Below are positions 14,064 through 63,473 of a stretch of 64,000 bases of DNA, one piece after another (position 1 is the first letter of the stretch; every line of letters starts with the position of its first letter). The position numbers and the translations under genes are program-made. Source of the DNA: the human T2T-CHM13v2.0 reference genome, Homo sapiens; the NCBI RefSeq assembly GCF_009914755.1, contig NC_060935.1; one strand, 5' to 3'. Under the pieces are notes generated by a model, which did no database searches, was not told the DNA's origin, and was given only the letters and a program-made list of their open reading frames with translations.

Positions 14064-14640
14064 GCGTGATGGGAACCATGGGGTTCCCTTCTGGGATCTG
14101 GGCTTGCAGGGTGATAGAGAAAATAAAACAGAAGCCTGAGAGTTTGAGATCAAGGTTCTAGCTTTCACCCTGCTCCAGCTTCTTTAATAGACATGTTAAC
14201 TAGCCTCAGTTTCCTTATCTGCAAAAAGCGGGGGTTGTGCCCGGGGATCCCTAAGGCGTCTTCCAGTTCTATTTTCACCTCTTAAAGTGCTGTGAGGGGC
14301 TGTAAGCCAAAGGAGGCCTATAGCCATTGGGTATTCATTGTTTATATTCATGTGCTGTGCTGTTTGGGTACTTGGTGTCCCCAAGGGTTATTCTCTCCAT
14401 GACAGGGCAGCTCTCTGGATCAGACTGCCTTGTTTTCATGCTATTCAGGTCAAAGACGGAGCTGTCATTTCTCCCTTGGAAAGAGTCATGGTGGTTTTTT
14501 GGTGCTTTTCTTAGACACACAGCAGGAAAAATGCCTTTTACAGCAGTTGATGAGCTTGTCAAGCAGCCATTCTTTCGGGAGCACAGATGAGCACAGGTTC
14601 ACTCCTGGCCGGAATATAAGAAGAAGCAGAGCAAAGTTAA

Positions 14641-14983
<343 letters not shown>

Positions 14984-16085
14984 TGTACTCACAATACTTC
15001 TGACACCCAATGTGTGGGTTTTCCACACCAAGTAATTCTTAAATATTTTGCAGCCACCAACCAGATGTCCTAGAATTTAATTAAATTTTACCACTACCCA
15101 GAGTTAGCACAGGCCCTATAGGTTAAGAGCTCAGTCCTGCAAGACTATCTACCACTTCAGATATCAACGGCAAGTGGTGGGTCCACATATTACCCACACT
15201 TATGTCTAACTTGGCTACAAATCAGGGCTTCCTACAACCTTCTTTTGGTTTCTATAATTTACTTTAATAGCTTAGAGAACTCAGGGAAGCACTATGCTTA
15301 TGTTTACCAGGTTATTTTAAAGGATATAAATGAACAGCTGGATGAGGAGATGCAAAAGGTGAAGTCTGGAAGGGTCCAAAGCACAGGAGCTTCTGTCCTT
15401 TTAGAGTTGGGGTGCACCACCCTCCTGGCACATGGATAGGTTCACTAAGTCAGAAACTCTCCATACCTCCTCATTTAGGGTTTTTATGGATGTTCCATTA
15501 GGCATGATTGATTGAATCATTGGCCATGGGTGATTAACTCAATCCCCAGTCCCTTTCCCCTCCCCAGAGGTCAGGTATGTGTGTGGCAGGGTGGAGGGGT
15601 AGTAGGTGGGGAAGTGGGGAGAATAGGTCGGTGGGCTGGAAATTCCAACTTTTTTTTTCCTCAATGTAATTTTTGTTAATGTATATCTGTAAGCACTATT
15701 TATTTCTGCACCTACAATGGTTCCTGGATTCTAAACAGTCATGGAGTTTAAATTTGTAACATTGGTTTAATAACAACTTTTCAGAGAGCAAAAGATGAAA
15801 TTTTTCACTCCATGAAATATCCCATATTCTATGAGTCAGCACATGTAAAGCACACATAACAGAACCTGGTACAAAGTAAGTGCAAGATGAATGTTAGCTA
15901 TTATATCTATGATATTAAAATGTGAAAAGATGACACCTTAGCATTGAAGAAATATGGTTTTTTAAATTTTTAAATCAATATTATAAAGTTACTTTTAGTG
16001 TTGATTTGTTGAAATTTATTATCTTTATCCCAGGGAATGCCTTCCTTGGCTCTTGATCTTTATTTTCCTTGACCTGCTAACAAAC

Positions 16086-16335
16086 TTTTTTTTTTATACT
16101 TTAAGTTCTAGGGTACATGTGCACAACATGCAGGTTTGTTACATAGGTATACATGTACCATGTTGGTTTGCTGCACCCATTAACTCGTCATTTACATTAT
16201 GACACAATGCTATCCCTCCCCCATCCCCCATACATTATGACATTATGACATAATGCTATCCCTCCCCCATCCCCCCACCCCACGACAGGACCCAGTGTGT
16301 GATGTTCCCCACTCTGTGTCCAAGTGTTCTAATTG
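16086..16335 (-). mobile_element. L1PA (about PA6-8) 3' end, ~250 bp, carrying a 3' transduction (15659-16085)
   Basis: TTATACTTTAAGTTCTAGGGTACATGTGCACAAC L1PA terminus. The TSD AATTCCAAC(C)TTTT brackets the L1 together with ~430 bp of non-L1 DNA. Confidence 0.85.
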
Positions 16336-17654
16336 AATTCCAACCTTTTAATAATATGGTTGGTTCTTCCCACAACCAGCCCCCAACCTGAAGCTAAGGA
16401 CTTTCAGCCACCAGTTATCTCATTAGCATAAACTCAGGTATGGTTAAAAGGTATTTATTATGAATAAAAAAAAGATGCTCCTATCACCTCTATCACTCAG
16501 GAAATTTCAAGGGTTTTAGGAGCTCTGTGCTGAGAACCAGGGATGAAAACCAAATATATGTATATTTTTTATTATGTTGTGTCATCACAGAAGTCCTAAA
16601 AATTTAGTTTGAATTCTCTTGCAGTTTCTTGTGACCTTGGGCAGGTGATTAAGCTGCTTTAAGCCTCAGTTATTTAATCAACTCAACTGGGACCTTGCGT
16701 GGATATGGTAAATGGTGTATGTAAAGTCCATGTATTGAATGTGCTTGGAATTCAGGAAGTGCTTTTATTTTATTGTTTTATTATTATTATTCATTTAAAA
16801 CATACTTATTTCCCAAGATTGAAGGATAAAATAGCTTTTACCAGTTATCCCACCTACTAATCAAGCGGTTTTTATTTCTGGAAGCTTCTCTACAACTTAC
16901 CTAGTCTCCAAAAGGAGGTAGTCAGGAATGGTGATTAGGTCAGTGGAATTATTTAGTGATTCGTCCCTGGAGCCACATGTGGAATGGTTTTCCATCTGAG
17001 GTTTTGGTGATAGTTCCACTACTTTTTTGCCTCATGATTGATAGTCCATTCCACCTTTGAATTTTTATATCAGTCTGCAAATGAATAACTATTGGCTCCT
17101 TGGGGGATTGATTCTCAGTGTTGCAGCAAGATCATATAATAAAATTAAGTCACCAAAAAGGGGATTTTTTAAAAGGCAGTAGAGAAAGGGGTGTGTCTCT
17201 GGATGAATGCTGTATTGAAGTGTCATGATGGAGTGTCAAGAAATATGCTTTCTTTCTTGAGATGGTGGTACCATTTTCTGAGGAGGCAAAGCCCACACCT
17301 TTCCATAGCCTTTCGGTAGTTCCATGCATAGCTAGAAGTTACGGTCATCTGAGAGGGTTAGAAAGGATGTGTGGAGAGTTGGATGAACCCAGATGTGACC
17401 ATGTCTGCCCTGTGAATAACCTTGACTGACTCTCCTCTACCTGGAGGATAGATATTTGGTTTGACATAGGAGGAACGCCATAACCTGCATCACTCATACC
17501 CACTATGACATTCTAGTTGTATGGAACTATGGGGCAATCCTCTACATTCAGCTTGGTTTCCTCCACCTGGATGCCCCTCTTCCCCCTTCTCCCTTTCTCC
17601 CCTGGCTTGCTCCTATCTAGCCTTCAACCCTAATCCCATGTGTCATGTCCTCCT

Positions 17655-63062: not shown

Positions 63063-63473
63063 AGTAGAAGTCCATCAATGATAGACTGGATTAAGAAAAT
63101 GTGGCACATATACACCATGGAATACTATGCAGCCATAAAAAAGGATGAGTTCATGTCCTTTGTAGGGATATGGGTGAAGCTAGAAACCATCATTCTGAGC
63201 AAACTATCGCAAGGACAGGAAACCAAACACCACATGTTCTCACTCATAGGTGGGAATTGAACAATGAGAACACTTGGACACAGGATGGGGAACATCACAC
63301 ACCGGGGCCTGACACTGACATGGACTGGGGGAGGGATAGCATTAGGAGATATACCTAATGTAAATGACGAGTTAATGGTTGCAGCACACCAACATGGCAC
63401 ATGTATACATATGTAACAAACCTGCACGTTGTGCACATGTACCCTAGAATTTAAAGTATAATAAATAAATAAA
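63063..63473 (+). mobile_element. L1PA (about PA4-6) 3' ~410 bp, including the ORF2p C-terminal remnant
   Basis: Translates to IDWIKKMWHIYTMEYYAAIKKDEFMSF...SLIGGN*; (AAAT)n tail; TSD TAAAGTGACTCCT at 63050-63062 and 63474-63486. Confidence 0.95.

What the first reader, a model, noticed from the sequence alone, without database searches (positions are those of the whole stretch)
15641..16351. L1-mediated 3' transduction: ~430 bp of foreign genomic DNA carried into a MER21 LTR
Seen: MER21 is interrupted by TSD AATTCCAAC(C)TTTT (15641-15653 / 16336-16349, followed by AA, a canonical TTTT/AA L1 endonuclease site). Reading the minus strand, the insert is 250 bp of L1PA 3' end, the source L1's own A10 (16086-16095), about 427 bp of non-L1 sequence including a MIR scrap (15659-16085), AATAAA (15699-15704) and a second A tail. 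The L1 5' junction shows microhomology (L1 AATTCCCACC versus target AATTCCAACC). Repeat annotation would show only unrelated fragments. The tag should identify the source L1 locus.
Basis: partly seen in the sequence, partly recalled or inferred. Interest (0 to 1): 0.7.

Follow-up and report, generated by a model that had tools for sequence, protein, structure and literature searches.

The report
L1 insertion carrying chr2 DNA
A short LINE-1 fragment that landed in an ancient retroviral LTR inside an AMOTL1 intron brought about 430 bases copied from chromosome 2; this is an ordinary by-product of LINE-1 copying, except that no LINE-1 sits beside the chromosome 2 source in this genome.

Summary
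Window 15641-16349 is one insertion bounded by a 14-nt target-site duplication (13 of 14) at a TTTT/AA site. It lies inside a solitary LTR of about 0.93 kb (14636-16589) of the MER21 group. All 22 paralogous LTR copies examined read straight through the insertion point.

On the minus strand the insert is 240 nt of L1 3' end, A10, 427 nt of non-L1 DNA with AATAAA, and a short A run. The 427 nt have one parent, chr2:197804652-197805145, with 11 differences in 419 aligned bases (2.6%). That dates the event to roughly 8-21 My.

3' transduction from a donor L1 allele that was never fixed remains the best reading (about 0.75). Known L1 chimeras have the opposite order, and source loci without a donor are usual in primates. 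A retrocopy of a chr2 RNA nested in the A-tail of an earlier L1 fragment would give the same letters, and it cannot be excluded without outgroup genomes.

LTR and L1 subfamilies could not be named without a repeat library. The finding is ordinary and of low interest.

The parts
14636..16589 (+). Solitary LTR of the MER21 group (ERVL-type by print), host of the insertion. About 929 nt of LTR remain once the two younger insertions are subtracted (arithmetic only). Bounds are good to about 2 nt.
   Evidence: The 5' end comes from 6 paralogs that align from about 14630-14640. The 3' end comes from paralogs whose homology runs to ...CACA; 11 of 24 rows show the cacaNNNN[c/t]aca ending. There is no second copy of any LTR piece in the 64-kb window. 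Labelled MER21 copies match it.
15641..15653 (.). Left copy of the target-site duplication (AATTCCAAC-TTTT). It is one base shorter than the right copy.
   Evidence: (D2). It is native LTR sequence by 22 of 22 paralogs.
15654..15658 (-). Remnant of the terminal A tail. The T run 15650-15658 shares its first 4 T with the duplication.
15659..16085 (-). 427 nt copied from chr2:197804652-197805145 (the 'tag'). Relative to chr2 it lacks one 75-nt tandem unit and carries an 8-nt duplication.
   Evidence: only other copy in the genome. (11 substitutions in 419)..
15699..15704 (-). AATAAA hexamer, 40 nt before the A run. It is kept at the chr2 parent.
16086..16095 (-). Internal A10 between the L1 end and the tag.
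16096..16335 (-). 3'-terminal 240 nt of an L1, 5'-truncated, with an internal tandem duplication of about 46 nt (16194-16275).
   Evidence: 1890 first-look candidates. (the last 98 nt are 93.9-99.0% identical to 28 of 29 copies)..
16336..16349 (.). Right copy of the target-site duplication (AATTCCAACCTTTT).
16350..16351 (+). AA that completes the TTTT/AA nick site on the + strand.
   Evidence: The motif is as given in print.

Best explanation
An L1 once lay on the minus strand of chr2, ending at about chr2:197805145/6 in T2T-CHM13 coordinates. It was transcribed past its own end. The transcript ran about 0.5 kb into the flank and was cleaved and polyadenylated after the flank's AATAAA.

L1 endonuclease nicked the + strand of a MER21-group LTR in the AMOTL1 intron at TTTT/AA. 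The T's primed reverse transcription of this read-through RNA. Copying stopped 240 nt into the L1. The cDNA end joined the other target end at a stretch that resembles the target at 10 of 11 positions. A 14-nt duplication was left.

The donor L1 allele was not retained in the lineage of this reference, either never fixed or later lost. Only the empty chr2 site and this offspring remain.

Shown: the anatomy, the single parent locus, the direction chr2 to chr11, the single duplication pair and the date. Inferred: that an L1 ever sat at the chr2 site.
For: - Anatomy and TTTT/AA site.
- Duplication beyond chance.
- Empty site in 22 of 22 LTR paralogs shown, chosen from 58 loci.
- The tag has one parent, on chr2, with no tails or duplication there, so chr2 is the source.
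- Tag against chr2: 11 of 419 differ (K2P 0.027, 95% interval 1.3-4.7%).
- The L1 piece looks equally young. Its last 98 nt are within 1-5 mismatches of 27 of 29 copies. In only 3 of 158 positions do 10% or fewer of the 29 copies share its base.
- No duplication flanks the L1 piece alone.
- Print: read-through past the weak L1 signal to a downstream AATAAA is the stated mechanism. In non-human primates the authors saw no clear full-length donor L1 at source loci, apart from one macaque region; in human, 3 of 6 calls had one. Transductions were 2.5-8.8% of new L1s (PMC4862182, passages of the Background, Table 1 and the subfamily section).
- Print: known L1 chimeras place the non-L1 part 5' of the L1 end, the reverse of this insert (bioRxiv 10.1101/2025.02.02.635956, introduction read in full).
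- Print: microhomology is common at 5' junctions of truncated L1 (PMC2912911, passages). Here 15 of 29 copies match at 10 of 11.
Against: - No L1 abuts the parent segment, and the window's L1 piece gives 0 matches in chr2:197802500-197812499. That span covers 2.1 kb on one side of the tag and 7.3 kb on the donor side.
- No sibling insertion shares the tag. Matches in closed regions are not shown.
- By my reading, the chr2 boundary (...AACTT|ATAAAC on the + strand) fits the endonuclease preference at only 3 of 6 positions.
- The terminal A run is short, and part of it can be explained without a tail.
- AATAAA lies 40 nt from the run, which is rather far.
- The same letters would result from a retrocopy landing in the A tail of an earlier L1 fragment (AAC+T9 on both sides of the tag, D4).
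- No outgroup genome could be read.
Confidence: 0.75

Rival explanations
1. Two separate insertions. First a plain 5'-truncated L1 (240 nt plus A tail) entered the LTR and made the 14-nt duplication. Later a retrocopy of a polyadenylated minus-strand RNA from chr2 was inserted into that L1's A tail. Its own duplication consists only of T's and is therefore invisible.
For: It explains the lack of an L1 at chr2 without a lost allele. AAC+T9 stands on both sides of the tag (15647-15658 and 16083-16094, D4). A T run followed by A is a good nick site, and such a site forces the same orientation as the host L1 (inference).
Against: No gene is annotated on the minus strand at the chr2 site; it is intergenic between ANKRD44-DT and NPM1P46. 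Retrocopies are rare next to L1 insertions: among human-specific insertions, 48 mRNA and 14 ncRNA retrocopies against 1120 L1 (PMC2912911 table). One would also have to hit this one tail. The L1 piece shows no sign of being older than the tag (3 of 158 private-like positions against 11 of 419). The right-hand AAC and two T's are also chr2's own letters.
Confidence: 0.12
2. A reverse-order chimera made in one event. Reverse transcription began on a polyadenylated chr2 RNA used in trans. At that RNA's 5' end or at a pause, the enzyme jumped onto the A tail of an L1 RNA, or the two RNAs were ligated beforehand. It then copied 240 nt of L1.
For: A single duplication pair flanks two RNA-derived parts in the same orientation. 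No L1 lies at chr2. Template switching and RNA ligation are the mechanisms proposed for L1 chimeras.
Against: In the chimeras described, the L1 3' end is the 3' part and the partner is 5'; here the order is reversed. It needs an unannotated RNA copied in trans. An A10 between the parts is what a genomic L1 tail gives in a read-through RNA.
Confidence: 0.06
3. A DNA-level templated repair of a break in the LTR, with microhomology-guided copying first from chr2 and then from an L1 elsewhere, and no RNA step.
For: There is likeness at the junctions. The chr2 flank GGCTAAGGAAATTAGAAC resembles the LTR target GGCTGGAAATTCCAAC (the score was reached by 1131 of 50000 and 919 of 50000 random 30-mers, so p is about 0.02, found post hoc). 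L1 resembles the target at 10 of 11.
Against: A 14-nt duplication at a TTTT/AA site, an A run at the end of each RNA-like part, and the tag ending 40 nt after AATAAA are the marks of target-primed reverse transcription. No L1 copy in the genome carries this piece's internal rearrangement (the best full-length hit, chr10, has a different duplication).
Confidence: 0.02

Closest known systems
L1 3' transduction (read-through of the L1 polyadenylation signal; described in PMC4862182 Background; the first descriptions by Moran, Goodier and Pickeral are recalled, not read)
   Same: Order 5'-duplication, L1 3' end, L1's own A tract, unique flank, AATAAA, A run, duplication-3'. TTTT/AA target. The tag maps to one other locus.
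   Different: The parent locus holds no L1 in this reference. The terminal A run is very short. The copy lacks one 75-nt tandem unit of the parent.
U6/L1-type chimeric retrocopies (template switch or RNA ligation; bioRxiv 10.1101/2025.02.02.635956, introduction)
   Same: Two RNA-derived parts in sense orientation within one duplication pair at an endonuclease site.
   Different: In those, the partner is 5' and the L1 end is 3' with the terminal tail. Here the L1 end is 5' and is followed by its A tract.
Processed retrocopy nested in the A tail of an older L1
   Same: T runs on both sides of the tag, same orientation, and a source locus without an L1.
   Different: There is no separable inner duplication, no annotated source transcript and no age gap between the L1 piece and the tag.
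MER21C / MER21B / MER21A solitary LTRs (ERVL-type). Print: 938-nt MER21C consensus; MER21C is Boroeutherian, MER21B Euarchontoglires (bioRxiv 10.1101/2023.10.30.564869, passages); MER21A is listed as primate (PMC4419796 table).
   Same: Length of about 929 nt. Thousands of candidate copies. It matches the labelled MER21C at GPR1-AS exon 1 and the labelled MER21A copies at HSD17B1 and CYP19A1.
   Different: The matches to labelled copies are short (59-122 nt at 76-78%). The subfamily is not resolved. This copy holds an extra G-rich stretch of about 50 nt (about 15577-15630) that the paralogs lack.

Membership tests
L1 3' transduction | One target-site duplication pair encloses the L1 part and the extra DNA together | tested here: met
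   14 nt, 13 of 14, at 15641-15653 and 16336-16349. 1 of 60 shuffles gives any such pair. No repeat flanks the L1 piece alone.
L1 3' transduction | Endonuclease-type target (TTTT/AA on the nicked strand) | tested here: met
   The + strand reads ...CCTTTT|AATAAT at 16344-16355. The motif is as in print.
L1 3' transduction | The L1 3' end with its own A tract is followed, in sense, by non-L1 DNA | tested here: met
   The name L1 rests on my recognition, on 1890 first-look candidates and on the G-rich tract lying about 120-160 nt before the A-rich end, as print says of the L1 reference (PMC5237266). No labelled library was on hand. A Pfam scan of two short frames of a neighbour copy found nothing.
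L1 3' transduction | Polyadenylation signal near the end of the extra DNA, then an untemplated A tail | tested here: inconclusive
   AATAAA is present and is kept at chr2, but it lies 40 nt upstream. Of the 9 T, 4 may be the duplication's and 3 are matched by chr2.
L1 3' transduction | The extra DNA maps to a unique locus elsewhere | tested here: met
   chr2:197804652-197805145 is the only other copy. All 4 first-look candidates were scored.
L1 3' transduction | At that locus the segment lies directly 3' of a donor L1 | tested here: not met
   Unique-looking DNA follows the segment. The window's L1 piece gives 0 HSPs in 10 kb. Print says this is the usual state for primate source loci.
L1 3' transduction | The whole insert is absent from the orthologous site of outgroup species | not testable with these tools
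   No primate genome other than this reference is reachable.
MER21-group LTR (ERVL-type) | Sequence likeness to copies that print labels MER21 | tested here: met
   Window LTR against the HSD17B1-upstream MER21A: 78% over 122 nt, E 5e-22. Against the CYP19A1-promoter MER21A: 76% over 59 nt. Against the GPR1-AS exon-1 MER21C: 76% over 78 nt, E 6e-10. Of 58 paralog loci, 50 hit the labelled MER21C stretch, 35 the HSD17B1 one and 17 the CYP19A1 one, over a background of about 12-15 loci that hit other repeats.
MER21-group LTR (ERVL-type) | Length near the published consensus (938 nt for MER21C) | tested here: met
   14636-16589 less 329 nt (Alu with one duplication copy) and 696 nt (this insert with one copy) gives 929 nt. 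Print figure.
MER21-group LTR (ERVL-type) | TG...CA termini and a short duplication of the host site | tested here: inconclusive
   The 3' end reads ...CACA. The 5' end is degenerate here, and only one of the 6 paralogs shown reads TGT at that place. I could not see a flanking duplication.
MER21-group LTR (ERVL-type) | Subfamily (A, B or C) by best match to library consensus | not testable with these tools
   No repeat library is available, and a majority sequence of copies is barred. Identity of 70-83% to paralogs fits an old subfamily (B or C) better than a primate one. This is inference.
MER21-group LTR (ERVL-type) | Link to ERVL inner genes | not tested
   This is a solitary LTR with no partner in the 64 kb. 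Inner genes were not needed and were not fetched.
U6/L1-type chimera | The partner RNA is 5' and the L1 3' end carries the terminal tail | tested here: not met
   The order here is L1 end, A10, partner, tail. The rule is as in print.
Nested retrocopy in an L1 tail | A second, inner duplication pair around the partner | tested here: inconclusive
   AAC+T9 stands on both sides (D4), but the right-hand AAC+TT is also chr2's own sequence. A T-only duplication cannot be told from tail.

The most novel reading that the evidence does not exclude
No L1 ever sat at the chr2 site. The insert is a reverse-order chimera. The L1 enzyme started on an unannotated polyadenylated chr2 RNA and then jumped onto the A tail of an L1 RNA. 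This arrangement (partner at the 3' side) is not among the chimera classes listed in the catalogue paper I read. The likeness between the chr2 flank and the nicked LTR target (p about 0.02) would then hint that target-RNA pairing beyond the T tract helped choose the start point.
Probability: 0.06. Interest if true: 0.4.

Novelty: new member of a known kind. Interest (0 to 1): 0.15.

Why it matters
As it stands, this is one more example of a common process. L1 read-through moves flanking DNA, and here 427 nt went from near ANKRD44 on chr2 into an AMOTL1 intron, antisense to the gene and with no annotated exon or functional element at the place (and the given annotation).

Its small value is as a record. 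If the favoured reading is right, the tag is the only trace in this genome of an L1 that was active at chr2:197.8 Mb some 8-21 My ago and did not survive.

It also shows that plain repeat annotation would split one event into unrelated scraps, and that an empty source locus by itself does not decide between transduction and a nested retrocopy.

Tried and rejected
1. A separate duplication around the L1 piece alone. The bases after A10 (minus strand) do not repeat the bases before the L1 5' end, so this was rejected.

2. A sibling L1 sharing the internal rearrangement. The one full-length hit of similar length (chr10, L068) has a different duplication at another place. That alignment was mis-oriented for the three comparison loci. 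I repeated it in the right orientation with other copies.

3. L1 much older than the tag, which would favour the nested reading. This was not seen (against 48).

4. A tool-given label for 'L1'. A Pfam scan of two short frames between stops of a neighbour copy gave 0 families. The name stays recalled.

5. LTR subfamily from labelled copies. The matches are too short to separate A, B and C.

6. The LTR's own host-site duplication. None was recognisable.

7. A second LTR copy that would indicate a provirus. None was found in the 64 kb.

8. Likeness between the chr2 flank and the LTR target. The unanchored p is about 0.02 and the match was found post hoc. It is kept as a note, not as evidence.

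9. The classical transduction papers (Szak 2003, Pickeral 2000) are not held. I used PMC4862182 instead.

10. A search for this locus in print (AMOTL1, ANKRD44, LINE-1, transduction; at least 3 of the 4 terms). It listed 7 papers, none on the subject judging by title and the start of the abstract.

11. Dates. The rate of 0.64 per site per 10^9 y is from PMC5237266 and gives about 21 My. The rates of about 1.1e-9 per site per year (about 12 My) and 0.17% per My (about 8 My) are recalled.
Full report
**What is there.** Read on the + strand, the window shows these parts in order.

| Window position | Content |
|---|---|
| up to 15640 | LTR sequence |
| 15641-15653 | AATTCCAAC+TTTT (left duplication copy) |
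| 15650-15658 | run of nine T |
| 15659-16085 | 427 nt of non-repetitive DNA |
| 16086-16095 | ten T |
| 16096-16335 | 240 nt of antisense L1 3' end |
| 16336-16349 | AATTCCAACCTTTT (right duplication copy) |
| from 16350 | AATAAT and more LTR |

- The repeat finder reports the flanking pair (14 nt, 93%, 695 apart).
- In 60 shuffles of 15600-16400, only 1 gave any 14-mer pair with at most one mismatch. For two fixed places with 5 nt of slack the chance is about 5e-5.
- On the minus strand the order is: duplication, L1 end, A10, foreign DNA with AATAAA (15699-15704) 40 nt before an A run, duplication.
- The nicked + strand reads TTTT|AA, the endonuclease motif given in print.

**The host.**
- The left flank (15150-15653) hit 1705 first-look candidates in the genome, and the right flank (16336-16620) hit 1084. 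In each search 39 candidates were scored. Non-self identities were 70-77% and 73-83%.
- I compared the two flanks apart against the 58 fetched loci (55 distinct places). In many, the end of the left piece is followed within about 14-20 nt by the start of the right piece.
- In the 22 loci whose right-piece match starts at query position 4 or lower, 22 of 22 read unbroken through the point (...gggctgaa AGTTCCAACCCTCTAATCAC...).
- So the duplicated 14 nt are the LTR's own, and the 695 nt between them are foreign to the family.
- Homology begins at about 14636 (6 paralogs) and ends at 16589 in ...CACA (11 of 24 rows show the same 12-nt ending).
- A second, unrelated insertion splits the LTR at 14674-15002. 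It is Alu-like by my recognition and has a 16-nt duplication.
- About 929 nt of LTR remain. No other copy of any LTR piece lies in the 64 kb, so it is solitary.

**Name and age of the LTR.** No repeat library was at hand, so I used copies that print labels.
- The MER21A upstream of HSD17B1 matches the window's LTR at 78% over 122 nt. The MER21A at the CYP19A1 placental promoter matches at 76% over 59 nt.
- The MER21C under exon 1 of GPR1-AS (CMKLR2-AS in RefSeq) matches at 76% over 78 nt.
- Of the 58 paralog loci, 50 hit that MER21C stretch, 35 the HSD17B1 stretch and 17 the CYP19A1 stretch. The background is about 12-15 loci that hit other repeats.
- Print gives a 938-nt MER21C consensus, 5,418 human copies and a Boroeutherian origin. 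It gives MER21B as Euarchontoglires and 88% like MER21C, and treats them among ERV3/ERVL solo LTRs (bioRxiv 10.1101/2023.10.30.564869, passages).
- MER21A is listed as primate (PMC4419796, table). PMC1781489 calls MER21C class I (passage), so print is not of one voice on the class.
- I file the LTR under the MER21 group. B or C is likelier than A because of the 70-83% identities, but the subfamily is not resolved.

**The foreign DNA.**
- Searched against the whole reference, the 427 nt have one other home: chr2:197804652-197805145, same strand sense as the window's + strand. Two weak hits (76-79%) to positions 173-248 look like an old interspersed scrap.
- The chr2 copy sits in unique-looking DNA with no A or T runs and no duplication, so it is the parent.
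- Over 419 aligned bases there are 11 substitutions: 8 transitions and 3 transversions, 2 at CpG. K2P is 0.027 and the 95% interval is 1.3-4.7%.
- chr2 holds 2.1 tandem copies of a 75-nt unit that are only 87% alike, so that repeat is older than the copy event. The window holds one unit, meaning one was lost at or after copying.
- The window also has a private 8-nt duplication.
- The point date is about 21 My with the rate quoted in PMC5237266, and about 12 or 8 My with two recalled rates. That is inside the 3.1-20.4 My span which that paper gives for L1Hs to L1PA5.

**The L1 piece.**
- Its last 98 nt are 93.9-99.0% identical to 28 of 29 scored genomic copies (median 95.9%). The first 60 nt are 81.7-96.7% identical. 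The middle carries a tandem duplication of about 46 nt.
- In only 3 of 158 positions do 10% or fewer of the 29 copies share the window's base. That is about what the tag's 2.6% predicts for one lineage, so the L1 piece and the tag look equally old.
- The L1 copies read AATTCCCACCT three bases beyond the truncation point. 15 of 29 match the target 11-mer at 10 of 11, 11 at 9, 2 at 8 and 1 at 5, while other offsets average 1.1-5.6.
It fits the microhomology-assisted 5' joining described for truncated L1 (PMC2912911, passages).

**The failed prediction.** It does not.
- After ...ctgctaacaaactt, chr2 continues with unrelated sequence.
- The window's L1 piece finds nothing in chr2:197802500-197812499. 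The 29 L1-bearing loci hit only six ~300-nt stretches there, each hit by 10-13 loci. I take these for Alu-like repeats in their flanks.
- The site is intergenic, 2 kb past the end of ANKRD44-DT. No minus-strand gene is annotated between it and NPM1P46.

**Weighing the readings.**

*(a) Transduction from a donor allele not kept in this lineage.*
- Every other feature fits.
- Apart from one macaque region, a primate survey saw no clear full-length donor L1 at the source loci of non-human primates; in human, 3 of 6 calls had one. Transductions were 2.5-8.8% of new L1 insertions (PMC4862182).

*(b) A retrocopy of a chr2 RNA nested in the A tail of an earlier short L1.*
- I found this rival late, from the AAC+T9 on both sides of the tag (D4). 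It yields the same letters and needs no L1 at chr2.
- It does need an unannotated RNA copied in trans that lands in this one tail.
- Human-specific retrocopies number 48 (mRNA) and 14 (ncRNA) against 1120 L1 (PMC2912911).
- There is no age gap between the L1 piece and the tag.

*(c) A reverse-order template-switch or ligation chimera.* The described classes have the partner 5' of the L1 end.

*(d) DNA-level templated repair.* The duplication at TTTT/AA and the A runs argue against it.

I put these at about 0.75, 0.12, 0.06 and 0.02.

**Verdict.** This is an ordinary kind of event with one open point: whether a donor L1 ever existed on chr2. Only outgroup and pangenome sequence can settle that. 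No paper on this locus turned up, and closed supplements might list it.

Noticed in passing
window 14658-15002: A second young insertion in the same LTR. It is an Alu-like element (name recalled) on the minus strand, with a T run at 14674-14698. It is flanked by a 16-nt duplication, TACTCACAATACTTCT (14658-14673 and 14987-15002). Six paralogs read through the site.
   Followed up: partly
window about 15577-15630: A G-rich stretch of about 50 nt inside the LTR that the paralogs lack. Where they have about 16 nt between the two conserved blocks, this copy has about 66.
   Followed up: partly
L006 2306-2460 (chr2:197804805-197804959): A 75-nt tandem repeat at the parent locus (2.1 copies, 87% alike). 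The chr11 copy holds a single unit whose left part follows unit 1 and right part follows unit 2, so one unit was lost by a single crossover or slip.
   Followed up: yes
window 15626-15649 versus L006 2130-2148: The chr2 DNA just outside the tag (GGCTAAGGAAATTAGAAC) resembles the LTR target next to the T run (GGCTGGAAATTCCAAC). The local score was reached by 2.3% and 1.8% of random 30-mers. The match was found post hoc and is unexplained.
   Followed up: partly
window 16194-16275: An internal tandem duplication of about 46 nt, plus an 8-nt triplet, in the L1 piece. None of the 29 compared copies shares it. The chr10 copy of similar length has a different duplication.
   Followed up: yes
window 15959-15975: An 8-nt tandem duplication (TTTTTAAA) in the tag that is absent from chr2.
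   Followed up: yes
window 63262-63469: Another L1 3' end, in the opposite orientation. It is 81-87% identical to the piece studied and is probably an older, unrelated insertion.
   Followed up: no
print, not sequence: PMC1781489 calls MER21C a class I element, while bioRxiv 10.1101/2023.10.30.564869 treats it among ERV3/ERVL solo LTRs.
   Followed up: no
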